Translations under genes and position numbers: made by a program | Part shown: positions 3,463 through 63,490 of the stretch, piece by piece | How positions within the stretch are numbered: the first letter of the stretch is position 1 | Layout of the letters: each line of letters begins with the position of its first letter | Notes under the pieces: generated by a model | Seen by the model: the letters and a program-made list of their open reading frames with translations, nothing else | Database searches by the model: none | Told to the model about the DNA's origin: nothing | NCBI GenBank assembly: GCA_964016885.1 | Contig: OZ024741.1 | Coordinates: forward strand, 11,346,001-11,410,000 | DNA: 64,000 nucleotides | Source of the DNA: Eledone cirrhosa | Taxonomy: Eukaryota | Direction of reading: 5' to 3'

Positions 3463-3493
<31 letters not shown>

Positions 3494-8231: not shown

Positions 8232-8331
8232 AAGGGTTTTATTTCTTTTGATTGAAAACAGTGACCGTACTGCATAATCGATTTCCTGTATAATATCAAT
8301 ATGCACACTACACATGCTAGTAGTAAATATA

Positions 8332-9038: not shown

Positions 9039-9417
9039 GTGACCTCAAATATAAGGTACCTATTGCTAGTGACTTCAAATATATGGTACCTATTGATAGT
9101 GACCTCAAATATAAGGTACCTATTGCTAGTAACCTCAAATATAAGGTACCTATTGCTAGTGACCTCAAATATATGGTACCTATTGCTAGTGACCTCAAAT
9201 ATAAGGTAACTATTGCTAGTGACCTCAAATATAAGGTACCTATTGCTAGTGACCTCAAATATATGGTACCTATTGATAGTGACCTCAAATATAAGGTACC
9301 TATTGCTAGTGACCTCAAATATATGGAATTAATTGCTAGTGACTTCAAATATAAGGTACCAATTGTGAGTGACCTCAAGGAACAAATTGCTTAGTGACCT
9401 CAAATATAAGGAACCCA
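9039..9417. repeat. 30-bp minisatellite (GTGACCTCAAATATAAGGTACCTATTGCTA) x ~12.5
   Basis: Exact 30-bp periodicity, degenerating at the right end; detached partial copy at 9637-9658. Confidence 0.96.
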
Positions 9418-12198: not shown

Positions 12199-12384
12199 TA
12201 CAAGAAAAGAAGAATATCAAGGCAAGTATTGCGGATATTACATCACCGTGGGACCAGAGGGTGAATGAGAAGGAAAATTGAGAAACACCAGAGGCTGAAG
12301 AGGGAAATCAGGAAACTGTGGAGAATCAGACATGTAGAAGTGGTACCGATTGTGGTTGGTGTACTGAGAGTAGTTAGTAGGTTA
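12199..12384 (+). mobile_element. R4/Dong-type non-LTR retrotransposon RLE fragment, left part
   Basis: IADITSPWDQRVNEKE /frameshift/ KIEKHQRLKREIRKLWRIRHVEVVPIVVGVLRVVS matches the D..VP.D....KE.EK..KY..L..EI..LW....V.VVPIVVG motif. Confidence 0.8.
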
Positions 12385-15300
12385 GACATGTAGTAGTGGT
12401 ACCGACTGAAGTTGGTACACCAGGAGTAGTTAGAAGGTTAGACATGTAGTAGTGGTACCGACTGTGGTTGGTACACTAGGAGTAGTTAGTAGGTTAGACA
12501 TGTAGTAGTGGTAGCAACTGTGGTTGGTACACTAGGAGTAGTTAGTAGGTTAGACATGTAGTTGTGGTACCAACTGTGGTTGGTGTACAGGGAGTAGTTA
12601 GTAGGTTAGACATGTAGTAGTGGTACCGACTGAAGTTGGTACACCAGGAGTAGTTAGAAGGTTAGACATGTAGTAGTGGTACCGACTGTGGTTGGTACAC
12701 TAGGAGTAGTTAGTAGGTTAGACATGTAATAGTGGTACCAACTATCGTTGGTACACTGGGAGTAGTTAGTAGGATAGACATGTAGTGGTGGTACCGACTG
12801 TGGTTGGTACACTGGGAGTAGTTAGTAGGTTAGACATGTAGTAGTGGTACCAACTGTGGTTGGTACACTAGGAGTAGTTAGTAGGATAGACATGTAGTAG
12901 TGGTACCAACTGTGGTTGGTACACTAGGAGTAGTTAGTAGGATAGACATGTAGTAGTGGTACCAACTGTGGTTGGTACACTAGGAGTAGTTAGTAGGTTA
13001 GACATATAGTAGTGGTACCAACTGTGGTTGATGTACTGGGAGTAGTTAGTAGGTTAGACATGTAGTAGTGGTACCAACTGTGGTTGATGTACTGGGAGTA
13101 GTTAGTAGGTTAGACATATAGTAGTGGTACCAACTGTGGTTGATGTACTGGGAGTAGTTAGTAGGTTAGACATGTAGTAGTGGTACCGACTGTGGTTGGT
13201 ACACTAGGAGTAGTAAGTAGGTTAGACATGTAGTAGTGGTACCGACTGTGGTTGGTACACTAGGAGTAGTTAGTAGGATAGACATGTAGTAGTGGTACCA
13301 ACTGTGGTTGGTACACTAGGAGTAGTTAGTAGGATAGACATGTAGTAGTGGTACCGACTGTGGTTGGTACACTAGGAGTAGTTAGTAGGTTAGACATGTA
13401 GTAGTGGTACCGACTGAGGTTGGTGTAATGGGAGTAGTTAGTAGGTTAGACATGTAGTAGTGGTACCAACTGTGGTTGGTGTACTGGGAGTAGTTAGTAG
13501 GTTAGACATGTAGTAGTGGTACCGACTGTGGTTGGTACACTGGGAGTAGTTAGTAGGTTAGACATGTAGTAGTGGTACCAACTGTGGTTGGTGTACTGGG
13601 AGTAGTTAGTAGGTTAGACATGTAGAAGTGGTACCAACTGTGGTTGGTGTACTGGGAGTAGTTAGTAGGTTAGACATGTAGAAGTGGTACCAACTGTGGT
13701 TGGTGTACTGGGAGTAGTTAGTAGGTTAGACATGTAGTAGTGGTACCAACTGTGGTTGGTGTACTGGGAGTAGTTAGTAGGTTAGACATGTAGTAGTGGT
13801 ACCAACTGTGGTTGGTACGCTAGGAGAAGTTAGTAGGTTAGACATGTAGTAGTGGTACCGACTGTAGTTGGTACACTGGAAGTAGTTAGTAGGTTAGACA
13901 TGTAGTAGTGGTACCGAATGTGGTTGGTACACTGGGAGTAGTTAGTAGGTTAGACATGTAGTAGTGGTACCGACTGTGGTTGGTACACTGGGAGTAGTTA
14001 GTAGGTTAGACATGTAGTAGTGGTACCAACTGTGGTTGGTGTACTGGGAGTTGTTAGTCGGTTAGACATGTAGTAGTGGTACCGACTGTGGTTGGTACAC
14101 TGGGAGTAGTTAGTAGGTTAGACATGTAGTAGTGGTACCGACTGTGGTTGGTACACTAGGAGTAGTTAGTAGGTTAGACATGTAGTAGTGGTACCGACTG
14201 TGGTTGGTACACTAGGAGTAGTTAGTAGGTTAGACATGTAGTAGTGGTACCAACAGTGGTTGGTACACTGGGAGTAGTTAGTAGGTTAGACATGTAGTAG
14301 TGGTACCGACTGTGGTTGGTGTACTGGGAGTAGTTAGTAGGTTAGACATGTAGTAGTGGTACCGACTGTGGTTGGTACACTGGGAGTAGTTAGTAGGTTA
14401 GACATGTAGTAATGGTACCGACTGTGGTTGGTACACTGGGAGTAGTTAGTAGGTTAGACATGTAGTAGTGGTACCGACTGTGGTTGGTACACTAGGAGTA
14501 GTTAGTAGGTTAGACATGTAGTAGTGGTACCGACTGTGGTTGGTACACTAGGAGTAGTTAGTAGGTTAGACATGTAGTAGTGGTACCGACTGTGGTTGGT
14601 GTACTGGGAGTAGTTAGTAGGTTAGACATGTAGTAGTGGTAACAACTGTGGTTGGTGTACTGGGAGTAGTTCGTAGGTTAGACATTTAGTAGTGGTACCG
14701 ACTGTAGTTGGTGTACTGGGAGTAGTTAGTAGGTTAGACATTTAGTAGTGGTACCGACTGTAGTTGGTGTACTGGGAGTAGTTAGTAGGTTAGATATTTA
14801 GTAATGGTACCGACTGTAGTTGGTGTACTGGGAGTAGTTAGTAGGTTAGACATGTAGTAGTGGTACCGACTGTGGTTGGTGTACTGGGAGTAGTTAGTAG
14901 GTTAGACATTTAGTAGTGGTACCGACTGTAGTTGGTGTACTGGGAGTAGTTAGTAGGTTAGACATCTAGTAGTGGTACCGACTGTGGTTGGTGTACTGGG
15001 AGTAGTTAGTAGGTTACACATGTAGTAGTGGTACCGACTGTGGTTGGTACACTGGGATTACTTAGTAGGTTAGACATGTAGAAGTGGTACCGACTGTAGT
15101 TGATACACTGGGAGTAGTTAGTAGGTTAGACATGTAGAAGTGGTACGGACTGTGGTTGGTACACTAGGAGTAGTTAGTAGGTTACACATGTAGTATTGGT
15201 ACCGACTGAGGTTGGTGAACTGGGAGTAGTTAGTAGGTTAGACATGTAGTAGTGGTACCAACTGTGGTTGGTGTACTGGGAGTAGTTAGTAGGATAGACA

Positions 15301-18300
15301 TGTAGTAGTGGTAACGACTGTGGTTGGTACACTGGAAGTAGTTAGTAGGTTAGACATGTAGTAGTGGTAACGACTGTGGTTGGTACACTGGAAGTAGTTA
15401 GTAGGTTAGACATGTAGTAGTGGTAACGACTGTGGTTGGTACACTGGAAGTAGTTAGTAGGTTAGACATGTAGTAGTGGTAACGACTGTGGTTGGTACAC
15501 TAGGAGTAGTTAGTAGGTTAGACATGTAGTAGTAGTACCAACTGTGGTTGGTACACTGGGAGTAGTTAGTAGGTTAGACATGTAGTAGTGGTACCGACTG
15601 TGGTTGGTACACTAGGAGTAGTTAGTAGGTTAGACATGTAGTAGTGGTACCGACTGAGGTTGGTGTACTGGGAGTAGTTAGTAGGTTAGACATTTAGTAG
15701 TGGTACCAACTGTGGTTGTTACACTGGGTGTAGTTAGTAGGTTAGACATGTAGTAGTGGTACCAACTGTGGCTGGTGTACTGGGAGTAGTTAGTAGGTTA
15801 GACATTTAGTAGTGGTACCAACTGTGGTTGGTGTACTGGGAGTAGTTAGTAGGTTAGACATGTAGTAGTGGTACCAACTGTGGTTGGTACACTAGGAGAA
15901 GTTAGTAGGTTAGACATGTAGTAGTGGTACCGACTGTAGTTGGTACACTGGAAGTAGTTAGTAGGTTAGACATGTAGTAGTGGTACCGACTGTGGTTGGT
16001 ACACTGGGAGTAGTTAGTAGGTTAGACATGTAGTAGTGGTACCGACTGTGGTTGGTACACTGGGAGTAGTTAGTAGGTTAGACATGTAGTAGTGGTACCG
16101 ACTGTGGTTGGTGTACTGGGAGTTGTTAGTCGGTTAGACATGTAGTAGTGGTACCAACTGTGGTTGGTACACTAGGAGTAGTTAGTAGGTTAGACATGTA
16201 ATAGTGGTACCAACTATCGTTGGTACACTGGGAGTAGTTAGTAGGATAGACATGTAGTTGTGGTAACGACTGTGGTTGGTACACTGGAAGTAGTTAGTAG
16301 GTTAGACATGTAGTAGTGGTACCAACTGTGGTTGGTACACTAGGAGAAGTTAGTAGGTTAGACATGTAGTAGTGGTACCGACTGTAGTTGGTACACTGGA
16401 AGTAGTTAGTAGGTTAGACATGTAGTAGTGGTACCGACTGTGGTTGGTACACTGGGAGCAGTTAGTAGGTTAGACATGTAGTAGTGGTACCGACTGTGGT
16501 TGGTACACTGGGAGTAGTTAGTAGGTTAGACATGTAGTAGTGGTACCAACTGTGGTTGGTACACTAGGAGAAGTTAGTAGGTTAGACATGTAGTAGTGGT
16601 ACCGACTGTAGTTGGTACACTGGAAGTAGTTAGTAGGTTAGACATGTAGTAGTGGTACCGACTGTGGTTGGTACACTGGGAGCAGTTAGTAGGTTAGACA
16701 TGTAGTAGTGGTACCGACTGTGGTTGGTACACTGGGAGTAGTTAGTAGGTTAGACATGTAGTAGTGGTACCGACTGTGGTTGGTGTACTGGGAGTTGTTA
16801 GTCGGTTAGACATGTAGTAGTGGTACCGACTGTGGTTGGTACACTGGGAGTAGTTAGTAGGTTAGACATGTAGTAGTGGTAACAACTGTGGTTGGTGTAC
16901 TGGGAGTAGTTCGTACGTTAGACATTTAGTAGTGGTACCGACTGTAGTTGGTGTACTGGGAGTAGTTAGTAGGTTAGACATGTAGTAGTGGTACCAACTG
17001 TAGTTGGTGTACTGGGAGTAGTTAGTAGGTTAGATATTTAGTAATGGTACCGACTGTAGTTGGTGTACTGGGAGTAGTTAGTAGGTTAGACATGTAGTAG
17101 TGGTACCGACTGTGGTTGGTGTACTGGGAGTAGTTAGTAGGTTAGACATTTAGTAGTGGTACCGACTGTAGTTGGTGTACTGGGAGTAGTTAGTAGGTTA
17201 GATATTTAGTAATGGTACCGACTGTAGTTGGTGTACTGGGAGTAGTTAGTAGGTTAGACATGTAGTAGTGGTACCGACTGTGGTTGGTGTACTGGGAGTA
17301 GTTAGTTGGTTAGACATTTAGTAGTGGTACCGACTGTAGTTGGTGTACTGGGAGTAGTTAGTAGGTTAGACATCTAGTAGTGGTACCGACTGTGGTTGGT
17401 GTACTGAGAGTAGTTAGTAGGTTAGACATGTAGTAGTGGTACCGACTGAAGTTGGTGTACTGGGAGTAGTTAGTAGGTTACATATGTAGTAGTGGTACCG
17501 ACTGTGGTTGGTACACTGGGAGTAGTTAGTAGGTTAGACATGTAGTAGTGGTAGCAACTGTGGTTGATACACTAGGAGTAGTTAGTAGGTTAGACATGTA
17601 GTTGTGGTACCAACTGTGGTTGGTGTACAGGGAGTAGTTAGTAGGTTAGACATGTAATAGTGGTACCAACTATCGTTGGTACACTAGGAGTAGTTAGTAG
17701 GTTAGACATGTAGTAGTGGTACCAACTGTGGTTGGTACACTGGGAGTAGTTAGTAGGTTAGACATGTAGTAGTGGTACTGACTGTGGTTGGTACACTGGG
17801 AGTAGTTAGTAGGATAGACATGTAGTTGTGGTACCAACTGTGGTTGGTACACTAGGAGTAGTTAGTAGGTTAGATATGTAGTAGTGGTACCGACTGTGGT
17901 TGGTACACTGGGAGTAGTTAGTAGGTTACATATGTAGTAGTGGTACCGACTGTGGTTGGTACACTAGGAGTAGTTTGTAGGATAGACATGTAGTTGTGGT
18001 ACCGACTGTAGTTGGTACACTGGGAGTAGTTAGTAGGTTAGACATGTAGTAGTGGTACCGACTGTGGTTGGTACACTAGGAGTAGTTTGTAGGTTAGACA
18101 TGTGGTAGTGGTACCGAATGTGGTTGGTACACTGGGAGTAGTTAGTAGGTTAGACATGTAGTAGTGGTACCGACTGTGGTTGGTACAATAGGAGTAGTTA
18201 GTAGGTTAGACATGTAGTAGTGGTACCGACTGAGGTTGGTGTACTGGGAGTAGTTAGTAGGTTAGACATGTAGTAGTGGTACCAACTGTGGTTGGTGTAC

Positions 18301-27300: not shown

Positions 27301-30300
27301 ATTGTGGTTGGTACACTGGAAGTAGTTAGTAGGTTAGACATGTAGTAGTGGCACCGACTATGGTTGGTACACTAGGAGAAGTGAGTAGGTTAGACATGTA
27401 GTAGTGGTACCGATTGTGGTTGGTACACTGGAAGTAGTTAGTAGGTTAGACCTGTAGTAGTGGTACACTGGGAGTAGTTTGTAGGTTAGACATGTAGTAG
27501 TGGTACCGACTGTGGTTGGTACACTGGGAGTAGTTAGTAGGTTAGACATGTAGTAGTGGTACCCACTGTGGTTGGTGTATTGGGAGTAGTTATTAGTTTA
27601 GACATGTAATAGTGGTACCCACTGTGGTTGGTGTACTGGGAGTAGTTAGTAGGTTAGACATGTAGTAGTGGTACCGACTGAGGTTGGTGTACTGGGAGTA
27701 GTTATTAGTAGGTTAGACATGTAGTAGTGGTACCGACTGTGGTTGGTGTACTGGGAGTAGTTAGTAGGTTAGACATGTAGTAGTGGTAACGACTGTGGTT
27801 GGTGTACTGGGAGTAGTTAGTAGGTTAGACATGTAATAGTGGTACCGACTATGGTTGGTACACTAGGAGTAGTTAGTAGGTTAGACATGTAGTAGTGGTA
27901 CCGACTGTGTTTGGTACACTGGAAGTAGTTAGTAGGTTAGACATGTAGTAGTGGTAAGGACTGTGCTTGGTACACTGGGAGTAGTTAGTAGGTTAGACAT
28001 GTAATAGTGGTACCGACTATGGTTGGTACACTAGGAGTAGTTAGTAGGTTAGACATGTAGTAGTGGTACCGACTATGGTTGGTACACTAGGAGAAGTTAG
28101 TAGGTTAGACATGTAGTAGTGGTACCGACTGTGGTTGGTACACTGGAAGTAGTTAGTAGGTTAGACCTGTAGTAGTGGTACCGACTGTGGTTGGTACACT
28201 GGGAGTAGTTAGTAGGTTAGACATGTAGTAGTGGTACCGACTGTGGTTGGTGTACTGGGAGTTGTTAGTCGGTTAGACATGTAGTAGTGGTACCGACTTT
28301 GGTTGGTACACTGGGAGTAGTTATTAGTAGGTTAGACATGTAGAAGTGGTACCGACTGTGGTTGGTGTACTGGGAGTAGTTAGTAGGTTAGACATGTAGT
28401 AGTGGTACCAACTGTGGTTGGTGTACTGGGAGTAGTTAGTAGCTTAGACATGTAGTAGTGGTACCGACTGTGGTTGGTGTACTGGGAGTAGTTAGTAGGT
28501 TAGACATGTAGAAGTGGTACCGACTGTGGTTGGTGTACTGGGAGTAGTTAGTAGGTTAGACATGTAGAAGTGGTACCGACTGTGGTTGGTGTACTGGGAG
28601 TAGCTAGGAGGTTAGACATGTAGAAGTGGTACCGACTGTGGTTGGTGTACTGGGAGTAGCTAGTAGATTAGACATGTAGTAGTGGTACCCACTGTGGTTG
28701 GTGTACTGGGAGTAGTTAGTAGGTTAGACATGTAGAAGTGGTACCGACTGTGGTTGGTGTACTGGGAGTAGCTAGTAGGTTAGACATGTAGTAGTGGTAC
28801 CGACTGTGGTTAGTGTACTGGGAGTAGTTAGTAGGTTAGACATGTAGAAATGGTACCGACTGTGGTTGGTACACTGGGAGTAGTTAGTAGGTTAGACATG
28901 TAGCAGTGGTACCGACTGTGGTTGGTACACTGGGAGTAGTTATTAGTAGGTTAGACATGTAGTAGTGGTACCGACTGTGGTTAGTGTACTGGGAGTAGTT
29001 AGTAGGTTAGACATGTAGAAGTGGTACCGACTGTGGTTGGTGTACTGGGAGTAGTTAGTAGGTTAGACATGTAGTAGTGGTACCGACTGTGGTTGGTACA
29101 CTAGGAGTAGTTAGTAGGTTAGACATGTAGTAGTGGTACCGACTGTGGTTGGTGTACTGGGAGTAGTTTTTAGGTTAGACATGTAGTAGTGGTACCAACA
29201 GTGGTTGGTGTACTGGGAGTAGTTAGTAGGTTAGACATTTAGTAGTGGTACCGACTGTGGTTGGTACACTAGGAGTAGTTAGTAGGTTAGACATGTAGTA
29301 GTGGTACCGACTGTAGTTGGTACACTGGGAGTAGTTAGTAGGTTAGACATGTAGTAGTGGTACCGACTGTGGTTGGTACACTAGTAGTAGTTAGTAGGTT
29401 AGACATGTAGTAGTGGTACCGACTGTGGTTGGTACACTGGGAGTAGTTAGTAGGTTAGACATGTAGTAGTGGTTTCGACTGTGGTTGGTGTACTGGGAGT
29501 AGTTAGTAGGTTAGACATGTAGTAGTGGTACCGACTGTGGTTGGTACACTGGGAGTAGTTAGTAGGTTAGACATGTAGTAGTGGTACCGACTGTGGTTGG
29601 TGTACTGGGAGTAGTTAGTAGGTTAGACCTGTAGTAGTGGTACCGACTGTGGTTAGTGTACTGGGAGTAGTTAGTAGGTTAGACATGTAGAAGTGGTACC
29701 GACTGTGGTTGGTGTACTGGGAGTAGTTAGTAGGTTAGACATGTAGTAGTGGTACAAACTGTGGTGTTAGTACACTAGAAGTAGTTAGTAGGTTAGACAT
29801 GTAGTAGTGGTACCAACTGTGGTGTTAGTACACTAGGAGTAGTTAGTAGGTTAGACATGTAATAGTGGTACCGACTGTGGTTGGTACACTGGGAGTAGTT
29901 AGTAGGTTAGACATGTAGTAGTGGTACCAACTGTGGTTGGTACACTAGGAGTAGTTAGTAGGATAGACATGTAGTTGTGGTACCAACTGTGGTTGGTACA
30001 CTAGGAGTAGTTAGTAGGTTAGACATGTAATAGTGGTACCGACTGTGGTTGGTACACTGGGAGTAGTTAGTAGGTTAGACATGTAGTAGTGGTACCAACT
30101 GTGGTTGGTACACTGGGAGTAGTTAGTAGGTTAGACATGTAGTGGTGGTACCGACTGTGGTTGGTACACTGGGAGTAGTTAGTAGGTTAGACATGTAGTA
30201 GTGGTACCAACTGTGGTTGGTACACTGGTAGTAGTTAGTAGGTTAGACATGTAGTAGTGGTACCAACTGTGGTTGGTACACTGGGTGTAGTTAGTAGGTT

Positions 30301-33300
30301 AGACATGTAGTAGTGGTAACAACTGTGGTTGGTACACTAGGAGTAGTTAGTAGGTTAGACATGTAGTAGTGGTACCGACTGTGGTTGGTGTACTGGGAGT
30401 AGTTAGTAGGTTAGACATGTAGTAGTGGTAACGACTGTGGTTGGTGTACTGGGAGTAGTTAGTAGGTTAGACATGTAATAGTGGTACCGACTATGGTTGG
30501 TACACTAGGAGTAGTTAGTAGGTTAGACATGTAGTAGTGGTACCGACTGAGGGTGGTGTACTGGGAGTAGTTATTAGTAGGTTAGACATGTAGTAGTGGT
30601 ACCGACTGTGGTTGGTGTACTGGGAGTAGTTATTAGGTTAGACATGTAGTAGTGGTACAGACTGTGGTTGGTGTACTGGCAATAGTTAGCAGGTTAGACA
30701 TGTAGTAGTGGTACCAATTGTGGTTGGTACACTGGGAGTAGTTAGTAGGTTAGACATGTAGTAGTGGTACCGACTGTGGTTGGTACACTGGGAGTAGTTA
30801 GTAGGTTAGACATGTAGTAGTGGTTTCGACTGTGGTTGGTGTACTGGGAGTAGTTAGTAGGTTAGACATGTAGTAGTGGTACCGACTGTGGTTGGTACAC
30901 TGGGAGTAGTTAGTAGGTTAGACATGTAGTAGTGGTTTCGACTGTGGTTGGTGTACTGGGAGTAGTTAGTAGGTTAGACATGTAGTAGTGGTACCGACTG
31001 TGGTTGGTACACTGGGAGTAGTTAGTAGGTTAGACATGTAGTAGTGGTACCGACTGTGGTTGGTGTACTGGGAGTAGTTAGTAGGTTAGACATGTAGTAG
31101 TGGTACCAATTGTGGTTGGTACACTGGAAGTAGTAAGTATGTTAGACCTGTAGTAGTGGTACCGACTGTGGTTGGTGTACTGGGAGTAGTTAGTAGGTTA
31201 GACATGTAGTAGTGGTACCGACTGTGGTTGGTACACTGGAAGTAGTTAGTAGGTTAGACATGTAGTAGTGGCACCGACTATGGTTGGTACACTAGAAGAA
31301 GTGAGTAGGTTAGACATGTAGTAGTGGTACCGATTGTGGTTGGTACACTGGAAGTAGTTAGTAGGTTAGACCTGTAGTAGTGGTACACTGGGAGTAGTTT
31401 GTAGGTTAGACATGTAGTAGTGGTACCGACTGTGGTTGGTACACTGGGAGTAGTTAGTAGGTTAGACATGTAGTAGTGGTACCCACTGTGGTTGGTGTAT
31501 TGGGAGTAGTTATTAGTTTAGACATGTAATAGTGGTACCCACTGTGGTTGGTGTACTGGGAGTAGTTAGTAGGTTAGACATGTAAAAGTGGTACCGACTG
31601 TGGTTGGTACACTGGGAGTAGTTTGTAGGTTAGACATGTAGTAGTGGTACCGACTGAGGTTGGTGTACTGGGAGTAGTTATTAGTAGGTTAGACATGTAG
31701 TAGTGGTACCGACTGTGGTTGGTGTACTGGGAGTAGTTATTAGGTTAGACATGTAGAAGTGGTACCGACTGTGGTTGGTACACTGGGAGTAGTTAGTAGG
31801 TTAGACATGTAGTAGTGGTACCCACTGTGGTTGGTGTACTGGGAGTAGTTAGTAGGTTAGACATGTAGTAGTGGTACCGACTGTGGTTGGTACACTGGGA
31901 GTAGTTAGTAGGTTAGACATGTAGTAGTGGTACCAACTGAGGTTGGTGTACTGGGAGTAGTTATTAGTAGGTTAGACATGTAGTAGTGGTACCGACTGTG
32001 GTTGGTGTACTGGGAGTAGTTAGTAGGTTAGACATGTAGTAGTGGTAACGACTGTGGTTGGTGTACTGGGAGTAGTTAGTAGGTTAGACATGTAATAGTG
32101 GTACCGACTATGGTTGGTACACTAGGAGTAGTTAGTAGGTTAGACATGTAGTAGTGGTACCGACTGTGGTTGGTACACTGGGAGTAGTTTTTAGGTTAGA
32201 CATGTAGTAGTGGTACCAACAGTGGTTGGTGTACTGGGAGTAGTTAGTAGGTTAGACATGTAGTAGTGGTACCGACTGTGGTTGGTACACTAGGAGTAGT
32301 TAGTAGGTTAGACATGTAGTAGTGGTACCGACTGTAGTTGGTACACTGGGAGTAGTTAGTAGGTTAGACATGTAGTAGTGGTACCGACTGTGGTTGGTAC
32401 ACTACTAGTAGTTAGTAGGTTAGACATGTAGTAGTGGTACCGACTGTGGTTGGTGTACTGGGAGTAGTTATTAGTAGGTTAGACATGTAGTAGTGGTACA
32501 GACTGTGGTTGGTGTACTGGCAATAGTTAGCAGGTTAGACATGTAGTAGTGGTACCAATTGTGGTTGGTACACTGGCAATAGTTAGCAGGTTAGACATGT
32601 AGTAGTGGTACCAATTGTGGTTGGTACACTGGGAGTAGTTAGTAGGTTAGACATGTTGTAGTGGTTTCGACTGTGGTTGGTGTACTGGGAGTAGTTAGTA
32701 GGTTAGACATGTAGTAGTGGTACCGACTGTGGTTGATACACTGGGAGTAGTTAGTAGGTTAGACATGTAGTAGTGGTTTCGACTGTGGTTGGTGTACTGG
32801 GAGTAGTTAGTAGGTTAGACATGTAGTAGTGGTACCGACTGTGGTTGGTACACTGGGAGTAGTTAGTAGGTTAGACATGTAGTAGTGGTTTCGACTGTGG
32901 TTGGTGTACTGGGAGTAGTTAGTAGGTTAGACATGTAGTAGTGGTACCGACTGTGGTTGGTACACTGGGAGTAGTTAGTAGGTTAGACATGTAGTAGTGG
33001 TACCGACTGTGGTTGGTGTACTGGGAGTAGTTAGTAGGTTAGACATGTAGTAGTGGTACCGACTGTGGTTGGTACACTGGAAGTAGTTAGTATGTTAGAC
33101 CTGTAGTAGTGGTACCGACTGTGGTTGGTGTACTGGGAGTAGTTAGTAGGTTAGACATGTAGTAGTGGTACCGACTGTGGTTGGAACACTGGAAGTAGTT
33201 AGTAGGTTAGACATGTAGTAGTGGCACCGACTATGGTTGGTACACTAGGAGAAGTGAGTAGGTTAGACATGTAGTAGTGGTACCGATTGTGGTTGGTACA

Positions 33301-36300
33301 CTGGAAGTAGTTAGTAGGTTAGACCTGTAGTAGTGGTACACTGGGAGTAGTTTGTAGGTTAGACATGTAGTAGTGGTACCGACTGTGGTTGGTACACTGG
33401 GAGTAGTTAGTAGGTTAGACATGTAGTAGTGGTACCGACTGTGGTTGGTGTATTGGGAGTAGTTATTAGTTTAGACATGTAATAGTGGTACCCACTGTGG
33501 TTGGTGTACTGGGAGTAGTTAGTAGGTTAGACATGTAAAAGTGGTACCAACTGTGGTTGGTACACTGGGAGTAGTTTGTAGGTTAGACATGTAGTAGTGG
33601 TACCGACTGAGGTTGGTGTACTGGGAGTAGTTATTAGTAGGTTAGACATGTAGTAGTGGTACCGACTGTGGTTGGTGTACTGGAAGTAGTTATTAGGTTA
33701 GACATGTAGAAGTGGTACCGACTGTGGTTGGTACACTGGGAGTAGTTAGTAGGTTAGACATGTAGTAGTGGTACCCACTGTGGTTGGTGTACTGGGAGTA
33801 GTTAGTAGGTTAGACATGTAGTAGTGGTACCGACTGTGGTTGGTACACTAGGAGTAGTTAGTAGGTTAGACATGTAGTAGTGGTACCAACTGAGGTTGGT
33901 GTACTGGGAGTAGTTATTAGTAGGTTAGACATGTAGTAGTGGTACCGACTGTGGTTGGTGTACTGGGAGTAGTTAGTACGTTAGACATGTAGTAGTGGTA
34001 ACGACTGTGGTTGGTGTACTGGGAGTAGTTAGTAGGTTAGACATGTAATAGTGGTACCGACTATGGTTGGTACACTAGGAGTAGTTAGTAGGTTAGACAT
34101 GTAGTAGTGGTACCGACTGTGGTTGGTACACTGGAAGTAGTTAGTAGGTTAGACATGTAGTAGTGGTAAGGACTGTGCTTGGTACACTGGGAGTAGTTAG
34201 TAGGTTAGACATGTAATAGTGGTACCGACTATGGTTGGTACACTAGGAGTAGTTAGTAGGTTAGACATGTAGTAGTGGTACCGACTATGGTTGGTACACT
34301 AGGAGAAGTTAGTAGGTTAGACATGAAGTAGTGGTACCGACTGTGGTTGGTACACTGGAAGTAGTTAGTAGGTTAGACCTGTAGTAGTGGTACCGACTGT
34401 GGTTGGTACACTGGGAGTAGTTAGTAGGTTAGACATGTAGTAGTGGTACCGACTGTGGTTGGTGTACTGGGAGTTGTTAGTCGGTTAGACATGTAGTAGT
34501 AGTACCGACTGTGGTTGGTACACTGGGAGTAGTTATTAGTAGGTTAGACATGTAGAAGTGGTACCGACTGTGGTTGGTGTACTGGGAGTAGTTAGTAGGT
34601 TAGACATGTAGTAGTGGTACCAACTGTGGTTGGTGTACTGGGAGTAGTTAGTAGCTTAGACATGTAGTAGTGGTACCGACTGTGGTTGGTGTACTGGGAG
34701 TAGTTTGTAGGTTAGACATGTAGTAGTGGTACCGACTGAGGTTGGTGTACTGGGAGTAGTTATTAGTAGGTTAGACATGTAGTAGTGGTACCGACTGTGG
34801 TTGGTGTACTGGGAGTAGTTATTAGGTTAGACATGTAGAAGTGGTACCGACTGTGGTTGGTACACTGGGAGTAGTTAGTAGGTTAGACATGTAGTAGTGG
34901 TACCCACTGTGGTTGGTGTACTGGGAGTAGTTAGTAGGTTAGACATGTAGTAGTGGTACCGACTGTGGTTGGTACACTGGGAGTAGTTAGTAGGTTAGAC
35001 ATGTAGTAGTGGTACCAACTGAGGTTGGTGTACTGGGAGTAGTTATTAGTAGGTTAGACATGTAGTAGTGGTACCGACTGTGGTTGGTGTACTGGGAGTA
35101 GTTAGTAGGTTAGACATGTAGTAGTGGTAACGACTGTGGTTGGTGTACTGGGAGTAGTTAGTAGGTTAGACATGTAATAGTGGTACCGACTATGGTTGGT
35201 ACACTAGGAGTAGTTAGTAGGTTAGACATGTAGTAGTGGTACCGACTGTGGTTGGTACACTGGGAGTAGTTTTTAGGTTAGACATGTAGTAGTGGTACCA
35301 ACAGTGGTTGGTGTACTGGGAGTAGTTAGTAGGTTAGACATGTAGTAGTGGTACCGACTGTGGTTGGTACACTAGGAGTAGTTAGTAGGTTAGACATGTA
35401 GTAGTGGTACCGACTGTAGTTGGTACACTGGGAGTAGTTAGTAGGTTAGACATGTAGTAGTGGTACCGACTGTGGTTGGTACACTACTAGTAGTTAGTAG
35501 GTTAGACATGTAGTAGTGGTACCGACTGTGGTTGGTGTACTGGGAGTAGTTATTAGTAGGTTAGACATGTAGTAGTGGTACAGACTGTGGTTGGTGTACT
35601 GGCAATAGTTAGCAGGTTAGACATGTAGTAGTGGTACCAATTGTGGTTGGTACACTGGGAGTAGTTAGTAGGTTAGACATGTTGTAGTGGTTTCGACTGT
35701 GGTTGGTGTACTGGGAGTAGTTAGTAGGTTAGACATGTAGTAGTGGTACCGACTGTGGTTGATACACTGGGAGTAGTTAGTAGGTTAGACATGTAGTAGT
35801 GGTTTCGACTGTGGTTGGTGTACTGGGAGTAGTTAGTAGGTTAGACATGTAGTAGTGGTACCGACTGTGGTTGGTACACTGGGAGTAGTTAGTAGGTTAG
35901 ACATGTAGTAGTGGTTTCGACTGTGGTTGGTGTACTGGGAGTAGTTAGTAGGTTAGACATGTAGTAGTGGTACCGACTGTGGTTGGTACACTGGGAGTAG
36001 TTAGTAGGTTAGACATGTAGTAGTGGTACCGACTGTGGTTGGTGTACTGGGAGTAGTTAGTAGGTTAGACATGTAGTAGTGGTACCGACTGTGGTTGGTA
36101 CACTGGAAGTAGTTAGTATGTTAGACCTGTAGTAGTGGTACCGACTGTGGTTGGTGTACTGGGAGTAGTTAGTAGGTTAGACATGTAGTAGTGGTACCGA
36201 CTGTGGTTGGAACACTGGAAGTAGTTAGTAGGTTAGACATGTAGTAGTGGCACCGACTATGGTTGGTACACTAGGAGAAGTGAGTAGGTTAGACATGTAG

Positions 36301-51300: not shown

Positions 51301-54300
51301 AGTGGTACCGACTATGGTTGGTACACTAGGAGAAGTTAGTAGGTTAGACATGTAGTAGTGGTACCGACTGTGGTTGGTACACTGGAAGTAGTTAGTAGGT
51401 TAGACCTGTAGTAGTGGTACCGACTGTGGTTGGTACACTGGGAGTAGTTAGTAGGTTAGACATGTAGTAGTGGTACCGACTGTGGTTGGTGTACTGGGAG
51501 TTGTTAGTCGGTTAGACATGTAGTAGTGGTACCGACTGTGGTTGGTACACTGGGAGTAGTTATTAGTAGGTTAGACATGTAGAAGTGGTACCGACTGTGG
51601 TTGGTGTACTGGGAGTAGTTAGTAGGTTAGACATGTAGTAGTGGTACCAACTGTGGTTGGTGTACTGGGAGTAGTTAGTAGGTTAGACATGTAGTAGTGG
51701 TACCGACTGTGGTTGGTGTACTGGGAGTAGTTAGTAGGATAGACATGTAGAAGTGGTACCAACTGTGGTTGGTGTACTGGGAGTAGTTAGTAGCTTAGAC
51801 ATGTAGTAGTGGTACCGACTGTGGTTGGTACACTGGGAGTAGTTAGTAGCTTAGACATGTAGTAGTGGTACCGACTGTGGTTAGTGTACTGGGAGTAGTT
51901 AGTAGGTTAGACATGTAGAAGTGGTACCGACTGTGGTTGGTACACTGGGAGTAGTTAGTAGGTTAGACATGTAGTAGTGGTACCGACTGTGGTTGGTACA
52001 CTGGGAGTAGTTATTAGTAGGTTAGACATGTAGTAGTGGTACCGACTGTGGTTAGTGTACTGGGAGTAGTTAGTAGGTTAGACATGTAGAAGTGGTACCG
52101 ACTGTGGTTGGTGTACTGGGAGTAGTTAGTAGGTTAGACATGTAGTAGTGGTACCGACTGTGGTTGGTACACTAGGAGTAGTTAGTAGGTTAGACATGTA
52201 GTAGTGGTACCGACTGTGGTTGGTACACTGGGAGTAGTTTTTAGGTTAGACATGTAGTAGTGGTACCAACAGTGGTTGGTGTACTGGGAGTAGTTAGTAG
52301 GTTAGACATGTAGTAGTGGTACCGACTGTGGTTGGTACACTAGGAGTAGTTAGTAGGTTAGACATGTAGTAGTGGTACCGACTGTAGTTGGTACACTGGG
52401 AGTAGTTAGTAGGTTAGACATGTAGTAGTGGTACCGACTGTGGTTAGTGTTCTGGGAGTAGTTAGTAGGTTAGACATGTAGAAGTGGTACCGACTGTGGT
52501 TGGTACACTGGGAGTAGTTAGTAGGTTAGACATGTAGTAGTGGTACCGACTGTGGTTGGTACACTGGGAGTAGTTATTAGTAGGTTAGACATGTAGTAGT
52601 GGTACCGACTGTGGTTAGTGTACTGGGAGTAGTTAGTAGGTTAGACATGTAGAAGTGGTACCGACTGTGGTTGGTGTACTGGGAGTAGTTAGTAGGTTAG
52701 ACATGTAGTAGTGGTACCGACTGTGGTTGGTACACTAGGAGTAGTTAGTAGGTTAGACATGTAGTAGTGGTACCGACTGTGGTTGGTACACTGGGAGTAG
52801 TTTTTAGGTTAGACATGTAGTAGTGGTACCAACAGTGGTTGGTGTACTGGGAGTAGTTAGTAGGTTAGACATGTAGTAGTGGTACCGACTGTGGTTGGTA
52901 CACTAGGAGTAGTTAGAAGGTTAGACATGTAGTAGTGGTACCGACTGTAGTTGGTACACTGGGAGTAGTTAGTAGGTTAGACATGTAGTAGTGGTACCGA
53001 CTGTGGTTGGTACACTAGTAGTAGTTAGTAGGTTAGACATGTAGTAGTGGTACCGACTGTGGTTGGTGTACTGGGAGTAGTTATTAGTAGGTTAGACATG
53101 TAGTAGTGGTACAGACTGTGGTTGGTGTACTGGCAATAGTTAGTAGGTTAGACATGTAGTAGTGGTACCAATTGTGGTTGGTACACTGGGAGTAGTTAGT
53201 AGGTTAGACATGTAGTAGTGGTACCGACTGTGGTTGGTACACTGGGAGTAGTTAGTAGGTTAGACATGTAGTAGTGGTTTCGACTGTGGTTGGTGTACTG
53301 GGAGTAGTTAGTAGGTTAGACATGTAGTAGTGGTACCGACTGTGGTTGGTGTACTGGGAGTAGTTAGTAGGTTAGACATGTAGTAGTGGTACCGACTGTG
53401 GTTGGTACACTGGGAGTAGTTAGTAGGTTAGACATGTAGTAGTGGTACCGACTGTGGTTGGTGTACTGGGAGTAGTTAGTAGGTTAGACATGTAGTAGTG
53501 GTACCGACTGTGGTTGGTGTACTGGGAGTAGTTAGTTGGTTAGACATGTAGTAGTGGTACCGACTGTGGTTGGTGTACTGGGAGTAGTTAGTAGGTTAGA
53601 CCTGTAGTAGTGGTACCGACTGTGGTTGGTACACTGGGAGTAGTTAGTAGGTTAGACATGTAGTAGTGGTACCGACTGTGGTTGGTGTACTGGGAGTAGT
53701 TAGTAGGTTAGACCTGTAGTAGTGGTACCGACTGTGGTTGGTACACTGGAAGTAGTTAGTATGTTAGACATGTAGTAGTGGTACCGACTGAGGTTGGTGT
53801 ACTGGGAGTAGTTAGTAGGTTAGACATGTAGTAGTGGTACCAACTGTGGTTGGTGTACTGGGAGTAGTTAGTAGGTTAGACCTGTAGTAGTGGTACCGAC
53901 TGTGGTTGGTGTACTGGGAGTAGTTAGTAGGTTAGACATGTAGTAGTGGTACCGACTGTGGTTGGTACACTGGGAGTAGTTAGTAGGTTAGATATATAGT
54001 AGTGGTACCGACTGTGGTTGGTGTACTGAGAGTAGTTAGTCGGTTAGATATATAGTAGTGGTACCGACTGTGGTTGGTACACTGGGAGTAGTTAGTAGGT
54101 TAGACATGTAGTAGTGGTACCAACTGTGGTTGGTACACTGGAAGTAGTTAGTAGGTTAGACATGTAGAAGTGGTACCGACTGTGGTTGGTGTACTGGGAG
54201 TAGTTAGTAGGTTAGACATGTAGTAGTGGTACCAACTGTGGTTGGTACACTGGGTGTAGTTAGTAGGTTAGACATGTAGTAGTGGTACCAACTGTGGTTG

Positions 54301-57300
54301 GTACACTGGGAGTAGTTAGTCGGTTAGACATGTAGTAGTGGTACCAACTGTGGTTGGTACACTGGGTGTAGTTAGTAGGTTAGATATATAGTAGTGGTAC
54401 CGACTGTGGTTGGTACACTGGGAGTAGTTAGTAGGTTAGATATATAGTAGTGGTACCGACTGTGGTTGGTGTACTGGGAGTAGTTAGTAGGTTAGACATG
54501 TAGTAGTGGTACCAACTGTGGTTGGTACACTGGGAGTAGTTAGTAGGTTAGACATGTAGTAGTGGTACCAACTGTGGTTGGTACACTGGAAGTAGTTAGT
54601 AGGTTAGATATATAGTAGTGGTACCGACTGTGGTTGGTGTACTGGGAGTAGTTAGTAGGTTAGACATGTAGAAGTGGTAACGACTGTGGTTGGTACACTG
54701 GGAGTAGTTAGTAGGTTAGACATGTAGAAGTGGTACCAACTGTGGTTGGTACACTGGGTGTAGTTAGTAGGTTAGACATGTAGTAGTGGTACCAACTGTG
54801 GTTGGTACACTGGGAGTAGTTAGTAGGTTAGACATGTAGTGGTGGTACCGACTGTGGTTGGTACACTGGGAGTAGTTAGTAGGTTAGACATGTAGTAGTG
54901 GTACCAACTGTGGTTGGTACACTGGGAGTAGTTAGTAGGTTAGACATGTAGTAGTGGTACCAACTGTGGTTGGTACACTGGGTGTAGTTAGTAGGTTAGA
55001 CATGTAGTAGTGGTACCGACTGTGGTTGGTACGCTGGGAGTAGTTAGTAGGTTAGACATGTAGTAGTGGTACCAACTGTGATTGGTACACTGGGAGTAGT
55101 TAGTAGGTTAGACATGTAGTGGTGCTACCGACTGTGGTTGGTACACTGGGAGTAGTTAGTAGGTTAGACATGTAGTAGTGGTACCAACTGTGGTTGGTAC
55201 ACTGGGTGTAGTTAGTAGGTTAGACATGTAGTAGTGGTACCGACTGTGGTTGGTACACTGGGAGTAGTTAGTAGGTTAGACATGTAGTAGTGGTACCAAC
55301 TGTGGTTGGTACACTGGGAGTAGTTAGTAGGTTAGACATCTAGTAGTGGTACCGACTGTGGTTGGTACACTGGGAGTAGTTAGTAGGTTAGACATGTAGT
55401 AGTGGTACCGACTGTGGTTGGTGTACTGGGAGTAGTTAGTAGGTTAGACATGTAGTAGTGGTACCAACTGTGGTTGGTGTACTGGGAGTAGTTAGTAGGT
55501 TAGACATGTAGTAGTGGTACCGACTGTGGTTGGTGTACTGGGAGTAGTTAATAGGTTAGACATGTAGTAGTGGTACCGACTGAGGTTGGTGTACTGGGAG
55601 TAGTTAGTAGGTTAGACATGTAGTAGTGGTACCGACTGTGGTTGGTGTACTGGGAGTAGTTAGTAGGTTAGACATGTAGTAGTGGTACCAACTGTGGTTG
55701 GTGTACTGGGAGTAGTTAGTAGGTTAGACATGTAGTAGTGGTACCGACTGTGGTTGTTGCACTGGGAGTAGTTAGTAGGTTAGACATGTAGTAGTGGTAC
55801 CAACTGTGGTTGGTACACTGGGAGTAGTTAGTAGGTTAGACATGTAGTAGTGGTACCGACTGTGGTTGGTGTACTGGGAGTTGTTAGTCGGTTAGACATG
55901 TGGTAGTGGTACCGACTGTGGTTGGTACACTGGGAGTAGTTATTAGTAGGTTAGACATGTAGAAGTGGTACCGACTGTGGTTGGTGTACTGGGAGTAGTT
56001 AGTAGGTTAGACATGTAGTAGTGGTACCAACTGTGGTTGGTGTACTGGGAGTAGTTAGTAGGTTAGACATGTAGTAGTGGTACCGACTGTGGTTGGTGTA
56101 CTGGGAGTAGTTAGTAGGATAGACATGTAGAAGTGGTACCGACTGTGGTTGGTGTACTGGGAGTAGTTAGTAGGTTAGACATGTAGTAGTGGTACCGACT
56201 GTGGTTGGTACACTAGGAGTAGTTAGTAGGTTAGACATGTAGTAGTGGTACCGACTGTGGTTGGTACACTAGGAGTAGTTTTTAGGTTAGACATGTAGTA
56301 GTGGTACCAACAGTGGTTGGTGTACTGGGAGTAGTTAGTAGGTTAGACATGTAGTAGTGGTACCGACTGTGGTTGGTACACTAGGAGTAGTTAGTAGGTT
56401 AGACATGTAGTAGTGGTACCGACTGTGGTTGGTACACTGGGAGTAGTTAGTAGGTTAGACATGTAGTAGTGGTACCGACTGTGGTTGGTACACTAGTAGT
56501 AGTTAGTAGGTTAGACATGTAGTAGTGGTACCGACTGTGGTTAGTGTACTGGGAGTAGTTAGTAGGTTAGACATGTAGAAGTGGTACCGACTGTGGTTGG
56601 TACACTGGGAGTAGTTAGTAGGTTAGACATGTAGTAGTGGTACCGACTGTGGTTGGTACACTGGGAGTAGTTATTAGTAGGTTAGACATGTAGTAGTGGT
56701 ACCGACTGTGGTTAGTGTACTGGGAGTAGTTAGTAGGTTAGACATGTAGAAGTGGTACCGACTGTGGTTGGTGTACTGGGAGTAGTTAGTAGGTTAGACA
56801 TGTAGTAGTGGTACCGACTGTGGTTGGTACACTAGGAGTAGTTAGTAGGTTAGACATGTAGTAGTGGTACCGACTGTGGTTGGTACACTAGGAGTAGTTT
56901 TTAGGTTAGACATGTAGTAGTGGTACCAACAGTGGTTGGTGTACTGGGAGTAGTTAGTAGGTTAGACATGTAGTAGTGGTACCGACTGTGGTTGGTACAC
57001 TAGGAGTAGTTAGTAGGTTAGACATGTAGTAGTGGTACCGACTGTAGTTGGTACACTGGGAGTAGTTAGTAGGTTAGACATGTAGTAGTGGTACCGACTG
57101 TGGTTGGTACACTAGTAGTAGTTAGTAGGTTAGACATGTAGTAGTGGTACCGACTGTGGTTGGTGTACTGGGAGTAGTTATTAGTAGGTTAGACATGTAG
57201 TAGTGGTACCGACTGTGGTTGGTGTACTGGCAATAGTTAGTAGGTTAGACATGTAGTAGTGGTACCAATTGTGGTTGGTACACTGGGAGTAGTTAGTAGG

Positions 57301-59426
57301 TTAGACATGTAGTAGTGGTACCGACTGTGGTTGGTACACTGGGAGTAGTTAGTAGGTTAGACATGTAGTAGTGGTACAGACTGTGGTTGGTGTACTGGCA
57401 ATAGTTAGTAGGTTAGACATGTAGTAGTGGTACCAATTGTGGTTGGTACACTGGGAGTAGTTAGTAGGTTAGACATGTAGTAGTGGTACCGACTGTGGTT
57501 GGTGTACTGGCAATAGTTAGTAGGTTAGACATGTAGTAGTGGTACCAATTGTGGTTGGTACACTGGGAGTAGTTAGTAGGTTAGACATGTAGTAGTGGTA
57601 CCGACTGTGGTTGGTACACTGGGAGTAGTTAGTAGGTTAGACATGTAGTAGTGGTACAGACTGTGGTTGGTGTACTGGCAATAGTTAGTAGGTTAGACAT
57701 GTAGTAGTGGTACCAATTGTGGTTGGTACACTGGGAGTAGTTAGTAGGTTAGACATGTAGTAGTGGTACCGACTGTGGTTGGTGTACTGGGAGTAGTTAG
57801 TAGGTTAGACATGTAGTAGTGGTACCAACTGTGGTTGGTACACTGGAAGTAGTTAGTAGGTTAGACATGTAGTAGTGGTACCGACTGTGGTTGGTACACT
57901 GGGAGTAGTTAGTAGGTTAGACATGTAGTAGTGGTACCGACTGTGGTTGGTACACTGGGAGTAGTTAGTAGGTTAGACATGTAGTAGTGGTACCGACTGT
58001 GGTTGGTGTACTGGGAGTAGTTAGTAGGTTAGACATGTAGTAGTGGTACCAACTGTGGTTGGTACACTAGGAGTAGTTAGTAGGTTAGACATGTAGTAGT
58101 GGTACCGACTGTGGTTGGTGTACTGGGAGTAGTTAGTAGGTTAGACATGTAGTAGTGGTACCGACTGTGGTTGGTACACTGGAAGTAGTTAGTATGTTAG
58201 ACCTGTAGTAGTGGTACCGACTGTGGTTGGTGTACTGGGAGTAGTTAGTAGGTTAGACATGTAGTGGTGGTACCGACTGTGGTTGGTACACTGGGAGTAG
58301 TTAGTAGGTTAGAAATCTAGTAGTGGTACCGACTGTGGTTGGTGTACTGGGAGTAGTTAGTAGGTTAGACATGTAGTAGTGGTACCGACTGTGGTTGGTA
58401 CACTGGGAGTAGTTAGTAGGTTAGACATGTAGTAGTGGTACCGACTGTGGTTGGTACACTGGGAGTAGTTAGTAGGTTAGACATGTAGTGGTGGTACCGA
58501 CTGTGGTTGGTACACTGGGAGTAGTTAGTAGGTTAGACATGTAGTAGTGGTACCAACTGTGGTTGGTACACTGGGAGTAGTTAGTAGGTTAGACATGTAG
58601 TAGTGGTACCAACTGTGGTTGGTACACTGGGTGTAGTTAGTAGGTTAGACATGTAGTAGTGGTACCGACTGTGGTTGGTACACTGGGAGTAGTTAGTAGG
58701 TTAGACATGTAGTAGTGGTACCAACTGTGATTGGTACACTGGGAGTAGTTAGTAGGTTAGACATGTAGTGGTGCTACCGACTGTGGTTGGTACACTGGGA
58801 GTAGTTAGTAGGTTAGACATGTAGTAGTGGTACCAACTGTGGTTGGTACACTGGGTGTAGTTAGTAGGTTAGACATGTAGTAGTGGTACCGACTGTGGTT
58901 GGTACACTGAGAGCAGTTAGTAGGTTAGACATGTAGTAGTGGTACCAACTGTGGTTGGTACACTGGGAGTAGTTAGTAGGTTAGACATCTAGTAGTGGTA
59001 CCGACTGTGGTTGGTACACTGGGAGTAGTTAGTAGGTTAGACATGTAGTAGTGGTACCGACTGTGGTTGGTGTACTGGGAGTAGTTAGTAGGTTAGACAT
59101 GTAGTAGTGGTACCAACTGTGGTTGGTGTACTGGGAGTAGTTAGTAGGTTAGACATGTAGTAGTGGTACCGACTGTGGTTGGTGTACTGGGAGTAGTTAG
59201 TAGGTTAGACATGTAGTAGTGGTACCGACTGTGGTTGGTACACTGGGAGTAGTTAGTAGGTTAGACATGTAGTAGTGGTACCGACTGTGGTTGGTACACT
59301 GGGAGTAGTTAGTAGGTTAGACATTTAGTAGTGGTACCGACTGTGGTTGGTACACTGGGAGTAGTTAGTAGGTTAGCTATGTAGTAGTGGTACCGATTGT
59401 GGTTGGTGTACTCGGAGTCGTTAGTA
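12329..59426. repeat. 47-kb satellite array, 56-bp monomer (GACATGTAGTAGTGGTACCGACTGTGGTTGGTACACTGGGAGTAGTTAGTAGGTTA), ~840 copies
   Basis: Head-to-tail period of 56 (e.g. 12441 to 12497); 59-bp, 57-bp and 40-bp variants occur after 27449; no inversion or foreign insertion noticed. Confidence 0.99.
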
Positions 59427-59646
59427 AAAGGTTCGATGCTTGGCTTGAGAAGCTAGGAATTACCATCAGGACAGGATTATTGCAGAAAACAGTCTTGTTA
59501 GGAACAGCAACGATTCTAAGAAGTGTTTTGGAAAGTTGAAGGAGAAGAAATGACCCAAAGGAACTTTGGTCATTGGTTATGCCTTTCTCTTTTGGTAGTG
59601 TTCGTGTAACATCTGCCAGAGCAAAAACATTACGAATAATGATAAT
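59381..59646 (+). mobile_element. R4/Dong-type retrotransposon C-terminus, 3'UTR and (AAT)n tail, right part
   Basis: VVVVPIVVGVLGVVSKRFDAWLEKLGITIRTGLLQKTVLLGTATILRSVLES* (TGA 59537-59539); 3'UTR stem-loop at ~59549-59574; AATAATGATAAT tail. Confidence 0.85.
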
Positions 59647-59972: not shown

Positions 59973-60203
59973 TGGTAAAAAGAGGATATTTATATATTAT
60001 CATCATCGTTTAACATTCATTTACCACACTAGCATGGGTAAGAAGGGTGGTCTCTTTGGAAGAGATCAGGTCAGAGGACTGTGTAAGCAAAACACAGTCC
60101 CCTGACCTGATCTCTCCCAAAGGGACAGCCCGTCTTACCCATGCTAGTGTAGTAAATGAATGTTAAACGATGATGATGATATATAAATATCCTCTTTTTA
60201 CCA
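59973..60203. repeat. Fold-back inverted repeat, ~112-bp arms, 7-nt loop
   Basis: TGGTAAAAAGAGGATATTTATAT...GGACTGTGT-AAGCAAA-ACACAGTCC...ATATAAATATCCTCTTTTTACCA; roughly 8 mismatches. Confidence 0.93.
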
Positions 60204-63248: not shown

Positions 63249-63490
63249 CATATATACACATATATATATACATATATATATATACATATATATATACACA
63301 TATATATATACATATATATATACATATATATATATATATACATATATATATACATATATATATACATATATATATACATATATATATATACATATATATA
63401 TTTACATATATATACATATATATATATACATATATATATATACATATATATATATACATATATATATAATATATATGTACATATATATAT
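63249..63490. repeat. (TA)n / TACATA compound microsatellite
   Basis: Direct; source of the YI-rich ORFs. Confidence 0.97.

What the first reader, a model, noticed from the sequence alone, without database searches (positions are those of the whole stretch)
12329..59426. Derived monomer variants converge on perfecting an internal hairpin (quasi-palindrome correction signature)
Seen: the parental-type sequence GTACCGAT-TGTG-GTTGGTGT pairs only with several G.T mismatches. The common derived changes GAT>GAC, CCGAC>CCAAC and the double change GGTGTA>GGTACA give a perfect GTACCAAC-TGTG-GTTGGTAC stem. CTGGG>CTAGG extends it (TAGT/ACTA over a 1-nt bulge), and the rare ACTACTA variant (32401, 35483) pairs fully with TAGTAGT. 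GT and AC almost always change together. Inference: template-switch mutagenesis or preferential amplification of cruciform-prone units is shaping the satellite; dyad symmetry has been proposed as a feature of centromeric satellites. CCGAC>CCAAC alone could also be CpG deamination.
Basis: partly seen in the sequence, partly recalled or inferred. Interest (0 to 1): 0.7.

Follow-up and report, generated by a model that had tools for sequence, protein, structure and literature searches.

The report
Retrotransposon-born satellite with modest hairpin bias
A 47-kb array of 56-base repeats sits inside the tail of a retrotransposon, and its commonest variants do tighten a small predicted hairpin, but they likely trace to about five old mutations that likely spread by chance copying, because the rarer variants show no such bias.

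Summary
The sequence facts hold. The array has 840 units of 56 bp inside the 3' end of an endonuclease-type LINE. The common alleles (22C, 33A34C, 20A, 38A, 10T) do build an 8-bp stem plus extension, but only 100 of 840 units have the perfect stem. The all-derived unit beats position-shuffled nulls (0-1 of 1500). Array-wide the excess is marginal (P about 0.02-0.07) and rests on about five or six events. The polarity is shakier than claimed: protein relatives read Ala (GC) at the GT/AC site in 43 of 54, so GT and AC may each be one transition from GC, and their linkage is descent. Neither mechanism shows an ongoing signature. The 99 minor alleles have no hairpin bias (P 0.5-0.8), copy number is unrelated to stability, stem-breaking alleles are common, and no bulge-removed, loop-inverted or 29C product exists. 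The same alleles also raise direct self-similarity. Most likely this is ordinary drift in a transposon-derived satellite, possibly with one early templated GT>AC event. Nothing points to a centromere.

The parts
12328..59426 (+). 56-bp tandem array, 840 units, with multi-kb block duplications and rare 59-, 58- and 40-nt units
12200..12384 (+). Left flank plus first unit: degraded C-terminal reading frame of a restriction-like-endonuclease LINE running into the array. The first unit keeps 10A, G20, 22T and GT. The left edge is approximate.
59376..59539 (+). Last unit plus right flank: the same reading frame continues to its stop codon. The last unit keeps G20, 22T, GT and has 38C and 44C.
12945..13000 (+). 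Example of an all-derived unit: perfect 8-bp stem (unit positions 15-22 with 27-34), 4-nt loop, 1-nt bulge and extension; -8.9 kcal/mol predicted
32401..32407 (+). ACTACTA variant (38A 39C 40T) on a G20 background
35483..35489 (+). Second ACTACTA copy; its five context-matched units lack 39C
27449..27488 (+). 40-nt unit: 16-nt deletion between the two direct TGGTAC copies that the AC allele creates (5 copies: 27449, 31369, 33322, 36348, 43480)
29458..29513 (+). Example of the 17T18T double change, fully linked in 20 of 20 units, which removes stem pairs

Best explanation
The array is a 56-bp piece of a LINE endonuclease coding tail repeated 840 times between the two halves of that reading frame, and the hairpin-tightening alleles are likely five or six early point mutations that likely rose by neutral unequal exchange and conversion rather than by a hairpin-driven process. 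Shown: the array position, allele counts, linkage, and no bias among later variants. Inferred: this strand is 70% G+T and already holds a G.T-rich quasi-palindrome from its Val/Pro/Gly codons, so T>C and G>A changes often add pairs (10 of 18 T>C and 5 of 21 G>A changes stabilise the founder model). Inferred: GT and AC are two old lineages that stay linked because adjacent sites are almost never separated. They arose either as two single transitions from the family GC or through one early double change in a GT founder. Inferred: position 20 is the unit's only CpG and may have changed more than once.
For: Minor alleles: 99 observed of 158 possible, with no excess of stabilising changes (P 0.51, 0.78, 0.69 from 20,000 within-type permutations). 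Haplotype copy number vs energy gives rho -0.02 (224 haplotypes, 834 units). The most stabilising possible change, 29C, is in 0 units, while stem-breakers are common: 18A 46, 18T 20, 30A 20, 19A 16, 31A 12, 19G 12. No bulge-removed, loop-inverted or 3'-arm-corrected unit was found. Other tightly linked doubles exist without a main-stem gain: 17T18T 20 of 20, 40C42A 14 of 15. Relatives at 70% identity or more read Ala 43, Thr 7, Val 2, Ser 1, Glu 1 at the site, so both alleles arise in relatives. G>A/C>T is the commonest change in the array, 15.7 copies per site against 2.3 for T>C/A>G. Perfect-stem units are no more often next to an identical unit (6 of 100 vs 20 of 325), and the 20A-AC association fades on distinct haplotypes (OR 1.46, P 0.28). 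Array-weighted nulls are marginal: 42 of 800, 14, 32 and 13 of 600, and 41 of 600.
Against: The all-derived unit is far beyond the null (0, 1 and 0 of 1500), and still 7 of 1500 with 20A fixed as a CpG change. Each of three G.T pairs of the GC-founder stem was fixed once. The inverted k-mer gain is stronger than the direct or complement gains, and mirror is flat. 22C is of the rare T>C class yet reached 809 of 840. The right terminal unit has GT between 22T and 38C, which look ancestral, so a GT founder and a true double change are as plausible as a GC founder. C19T has only 2 copies, so CpG decay is not symmetric here. Raw 20A-AC co-occurrence is 137 vs 118.5 expected (4 of 839 circular shifts). 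The nested chain 38A, 40T, 39C improves pairing at each step.
Confidence: 0.55

Rival explanations
1. One or a few early inverted-repeat template switches, chiefly GT>AC copied from the 5' arm or a 2-bp microinversion within GTGTAC, happened in a GT founder, and the products then drifted.
For: AC is the exact inverted copy of the 5' arm, and GT/AC intermediates are nearly absent (GC 1, AT 1 of 840). Both terminal units have GT. The inverted signal exceeds the direct, complement and mirror controls. The mechanism is documented in eukaryotes (PMC5453318 passages).
Against: The tract would be 2 changed bases that leave the G20.T29 mismatch and the bulge on either side uncorrected. 22C and 20A spread separately (577 units have 22C with G20). 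No other switch products were found. The event fails the published high-confidence filter, which requires unmasked sequence and at least 95% identity in a fragment of 10 bp or more. A GC founder explains the pair with two common transitions.
Confidence: 0.2
2. Direct-repeat misalignment within or between units templated several alleles: AC copies the TGGTAC 16 nt upstream, 10T and 38A extend TAG-like runs, and 22C copies the GAC at the unit start. The hairpin gain is a by-product because GGTACC is itself palindromic.
For: The same alleles raise direct k-mer self-similarity (43-68 of 4000 at k=4 and 5). The 40-nt units delete exactly the 16 nt between the direct TGGTAC copies, so slippage happens here.
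Against: It does not explain 20A. The direct signal is weaker than the inverted one. The 16-nt deletion needs AC to exist first.
Confidence: 0.12
3. Hairpin- or cruciform-prone units are preferentially amplified, or selected for a centromere-like role.
For: The five commonest derived alleles all pair in one register. Short dyads are reported as enriched at some centromeres (PMC5889037 passages). There is a mild raw excess of 20A with AC.
Against: Copy number does not track stability, stem positions are not significantly less variable (P 0.20), and stem-breakers are common. Perfect units are 12% of the array, with no trend along it. The commonest units fold no better than shuffles. The array is 47 kb, closed on both sides within one LINE copy. 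From general knowledge (recalled), an 8-bp arm needs strong negative supercoiling to extrude.
Confidence: 0.08

Closest known systems
Transposable-element-derived satellites and minisatellites (review PMC6947457; passages seen)
   Same: A short internal piece of a retroelement is amplified head to tail, with block duplications and intra-unit exchange of alleles.
   Different: Here the source is the coding tail of a restriction-like-endonuclease LINE, and both halves of the host copy still flank the array, so the founder state can be read from the terminal units.
Quasi-palindrome (template-switch) mutation (PMC5453318 passages; PMC8794818 abstract and outline)
   Same: Changes turn an imperfect inverted repeat into a better one, and one is an adjacent double change.
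   Different: The changes are spread over both arms on separate lineages, the bulge is never removed, the spacer is never inverted, and nothing shows recurrence.
Dyad-rich centromeric satellites (PMC5889037 passages)
   Same: A dyad longer than 4 bp with a spacer under 20 bp exists in many units.
   Different: It is a single 47-kb array, the modal units are no more structured than shuffles, and there are no centromere data.
R2/R4(Dong)-type non-LTR retrotransposons
   Same: The relative P0012 aligns to the endonuclease region of a solved R2 protein (9nl2_A, E 1.1e-4). A Dong element is reported in Octopus bimaculoides (PMC9115989 passages).
   Different: The window holds only a degraded 3' fragment.

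Membership tests
TE-derived satellite | Head-to-tail array of a short unit | tested here: met
   840 units, period 56
TE-derived satellite | Unit is collinear with part of a dispersed element | tested here: met
   The terminal units read in frame with both flanks and align to relatives at 63-87% identity
RLE-type non-LTR retrotransposon | C-terminal restriction-like endonuclease region | tested here: met
   Relative P0012 matches the R2 protein 9nl2_A at residues 998-1069. The window fragments alone hit no Pfam family.
R4/Dong clade | Reverse-transcriptase phylogeny places it in R4 | not testable with these tools
   This fragment has no RT domain and no repeat library was available
Template-switch (quasi-palindrome) mutation | Change increases inverted-repeat identity | tested here: met
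Template-switch (quasi-palindrome) mutation | Several neighbouring mismatches or the bulge corrected in one event, or the spacer inverted | tested here: not met
   0 bulge-removed, 0 loop-inverted and 0 29C units; 22C and 20A are separate. Only the 2-nt GT>AC change qualifies.
Template-switch (quasi-palindrome) mutation | Recurrence at the same site | tested here: inconclusive
   Context-matched groups gave one GT/AC difference and one, too few to give a direction
Template-switch (quasi-palindrome) mutation | Ancestral state is the imperfect GT form | tested here: inconclusive
   Both terminal units are GT, but the family is GC
Hairpin-selected satellite | Copy number rises with stability and stem-breaking alleles are depleted | tested here: not met
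   rho -0.02; permutation P 0.51-0.78; stem vs non-stem P 0.20
Centromeric satellite | CENP-A occupancy and centromeric position | not testable with these tools
   No chromatin or chromosome-scale data

The most novel reading that the evidence does not exclude
During the birth of a satellite, while the array is only a few units long, templated copying between the arms of a G.T-rich quasi-palindrome, or a head start for better-folding units, writes dyad symmetry into the monomer. The bias then stops once bulk unequal exchange takes over. Satellites would gain their dyads by an early mutational ratchet with no need for centromeric selection, and this array, with its founder still readable at both ends, would be a direct record of it.
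Probability: 0.15. Interest if true: 0.65.

Novelty: new member of a known kind. Interest (0 to 1): 0.27.

Why it matters
If the early-allele bias proved general, it would give a mutational origin for the short dyad symmetries reported in many satellites and a way to separate that from centromeric selection. As it stands, the array is a clean natural record of a satellite born inside a retrotransposon. It also shows that counting repeat copies as independent events inflates an apparent convergence.

Tried and rejected
Recurrent, directional GT>AC conversion: context-matched units in duplicated blocks gave too few events (24 site differences in 113 groups; 3 at four common sites). Nucleotide consensus of the family: the bacterial and archaeal genome scan found no relative. 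Motif searches of the PMC9115989 supplements found nothing: files 1-4 were searched, files 5 and 7 yielded about 90 characters of text each, files 6 and 8 were not searched, and two files were too large. An off-frame protein search returned only the query. The metagenome and viral collections were not searched and stay unchecked. CpG decay as a full explanation of 20A: not supported, because C19T (2 copies) is rarer than C19A (16) and C19G (12), although octopus satellites are reported as relatively more methylated than transposons (PMC9476566 passages). A regular higher-order repeat of 112 or 168 bp: not supported; the best identity offsets with many pairs are 51, 128, 54 and 59 units. Coding function of the array: not pursued, since a 56-nt unit shifts frame at every copy. 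Sequencing artefact: unlikely, since rare alleles recur in duplicated blocks. The first permutation run timed out without output and was repeated with fewer draws.

Full report
What is there. Tandem Repeats Finder gives one 56-bp array at 12328-59426. Parsing gave 835 pieces; five 96-nt pieces were split into 40 + 56 nt, giving 840 units and 226 aligned haplotypes. The left flank reads in frame into the first unit and the last unit reads on to a stop codon in the right flank. The 52-residue right piece finds 30 relatives in one protein set and 599 in another, of which the best 150 were listed. One longer relative, P0012, matches the endonuclease region of a solved R2 retrotransposon protein (E 1.1e-4). 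So the array grew inside the coding tail of a restriction-like-endonuclease LINE. That the host is an octopus is my recall from a SINE motif in the flanks, not a call result.

Observation. With GACATG as positions 1-6, the counts of 840 are 22C 809, 10T 751, AC 493, GT 342, other dinucleotides 5, 20A 202 and 38A 152. The perfect 8-pair stem occurs in 100 units and all five derived alleles together in 48. ACTACTA sits at 32401 and 35483 as stated, but both units keep G20. One of six context-matched units carries 39C, so it is most likely one event duplicated. Predicted folding rises from -1.4 kcal/mol in the first unit to -8.9 in the all-derived unit (z -2.6). The commonest AC and GT units give z -1.1 and +0.2 against shuffles.

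Polarity. All 177 fetched proteins were aligned to the right piece. In the band of 70% identity or more (60 proteins, 54 with a residue at the site) the GT/AC codon is Ala 43, Thr 7, Val 2, Ser 1, Glu 1. The family state is therefore GC, and GT and AC are each one transition away from it. 22C and 10T are derived: there is no Thr at the Ile/Val site and Glu in 37 of 39. Positions 20 and 38 are synonymous and cannot be read from in-frame proteins. Decoding two off-frame relatives by hand (inference), P0030 implies 20A, GC and 38C, and P0125 implies 20G. The last unit also has 38C, so even 38G may be derived. Both terminal units have GT with the ancestral 22T, which argues for a GT founder. The 22 internal 22T units are all AC, so AC is either very old or 22T reverted. 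I cannot decide between a GC founder with two single changes and a GT founder with one double change.

Chance. Relocating the same mutation types to random positions and refolding both strands, the all-derived unit (-17.5 summed) was matched by 0 of 1500, 1 of 1500 with GT>AC kept adjacent, and 0 of 1500 from a GC founder. With 20A fixed it was 7 of 1500; without 20A, 117 and 55 of 1500. Weighting the six main haplotypes by frequency, the observed -9.2 was matched by 42 of 800, by 14, 32 and 13 of 600, and by 41 of 600 when the founder carried 38C, 44C and GC. That founder already folds at -7.9. In k-mer terms the inverted gain was reached by 0-29 of 4000 draws, direct by 43-236, complement-only by 58-597 and mirror by 2266-2924. 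So there is a real but small excess resting on five or six events in one array noticed after the fact. The strand is 70% G+T, and 10 of 18 T>C and 5 of 21 G>A single changes stabilise the founder model.

Mechanism tests. For these, the five 40-nt units and the last unit were dropped (834 units, 224 haplotypes). Copy number does not follow stability (rho -0.02); within the class with three rare changes the more stable haplotypes were commoner (rho 0.46, n 34), while the classes with none, one or two showed no significant trend. Among 158 possible minor substitutions, 99 seen, there is no bias toward stabilising ones (P 0.51, 0.78, 0.69). The strongest possible fix, 29C, is absent, while 18A (46), 18T (20), 30A (20), 19A (16), 31A (12) and 19G (12) break the stem. 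Searches for bulge removal, loop inversion and 3'-arm or 5'-arm correction gave 0, apart from two hits that are 37C variants on AC. Two other doubles are just as tightly linked: 17T18T in 20 of 20, which removes stem pairs, and 40C42A in 14 of 15. 38A lies on AC in 146 of 152 units, as expected for a change 5 nt away on that lineage; 40A, which has no folding effect, is equally tied to AC (97%). 20A with AC is 137 against 118.5 expected (4 of 839 shifts), but OR 1.46 with P 0.28 on distinct haplotypes. The 40-nt units delete the 16 nt between two direct TGGTAC copies, showing that direct slippage acts here. Because GGTACC is palindromic, inverted and direct templates for AC cannot be told apart.

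Literature. PMC5453318 (passages) describes template switches that perfect inverted repeats and can invert the spacer. Its high-confidence set needs a fragment of 10 bp or more in unmasked sequence, though it notes that shorter events occur. PMC8794818 (abstract and outline) extends this to RNA stems. PMC5889037 (passages) reports short dyads at some centromeres. PMC6947457 (passages) lists satellites and minisatellites born from retroelements. PMC9115989 (passages) mentions a Dong element in Octopus bimaculoides. PMC9476566 (passages) reports low methylation on octopus transposons and relatively more on satellites. Searches (listings and abstract starts only) showed no paper on hairpin-perfecting convergence within a satellite array or on this satellite. 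The library lacks most subscription papers, and bioRxiv supplements were not seen.

Verdict. The finding is a fair observation with an overstated mechanism. The best reading is drift in a LINE-derived satellite with a few early transitions that happen to pair (0.55). An early templated event is a live alternative (0.20 inverted, 0.12 direct), and preferential amplification or centromere function is unlikely (0.08). Novelty: new member of a known kind. Interest 0.27.

Noticed in passing
window 10366-10735: A 61-bp minisatellite of 6 copies whose unit translates like the 3' end of another LINE-type reading frame (the LINE label is recalled). It would be a second retroelement-born tandem 1.6 kb from the main array.
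   Followed up: partly
window 1-2300, 3301-3704, 3710-6781, 9039-9378: Four more tandem arrays (11, 3, 19 and 30 bp units) cluster on the left, so the region is prone to tandem amplification. They could serve as controls for the hairpin test.
   Followed up: no
window 7718-7786 and 8165-8233: A 69-nt inverted repeat, 97% complementary and 378 nt apart, likely the ends of a small DNA transposon.
   Followed up: partly
window 59973-60203 and 63469-63810: Two long fold-back repeats: 112-nt arms 7 nt apart (93%) and 146-nt arms 50 nt apart (92%). They are far better cruciform candidates than the satellite stem.
   Followed up: partly
window 61380-62700: A degraded reverse-transcriptase-like reading frame with stops and frameshifts, RTE-like by recall.
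   Followed up: partly
window 59376-59426: The last unit has 38C, as one off-frame relative implies, and keeps the longer A run after the unit that internal units lack, so it may preserve the founder better than the first unit.
   Followed up: partly
window 32401-32412 and 35483-35494: The ACTACTA allele also forms a perfect 12-bp palindrome with the bases immediately downstream, a second possible template for 39C (read from the sequence).
   Followed up: no
window 27657-57191: 45 units of 59 nt with a 3-nt insertion occur only from 27657 onward and mark the duplicated multi-kb blocks.
   Followed up: partly
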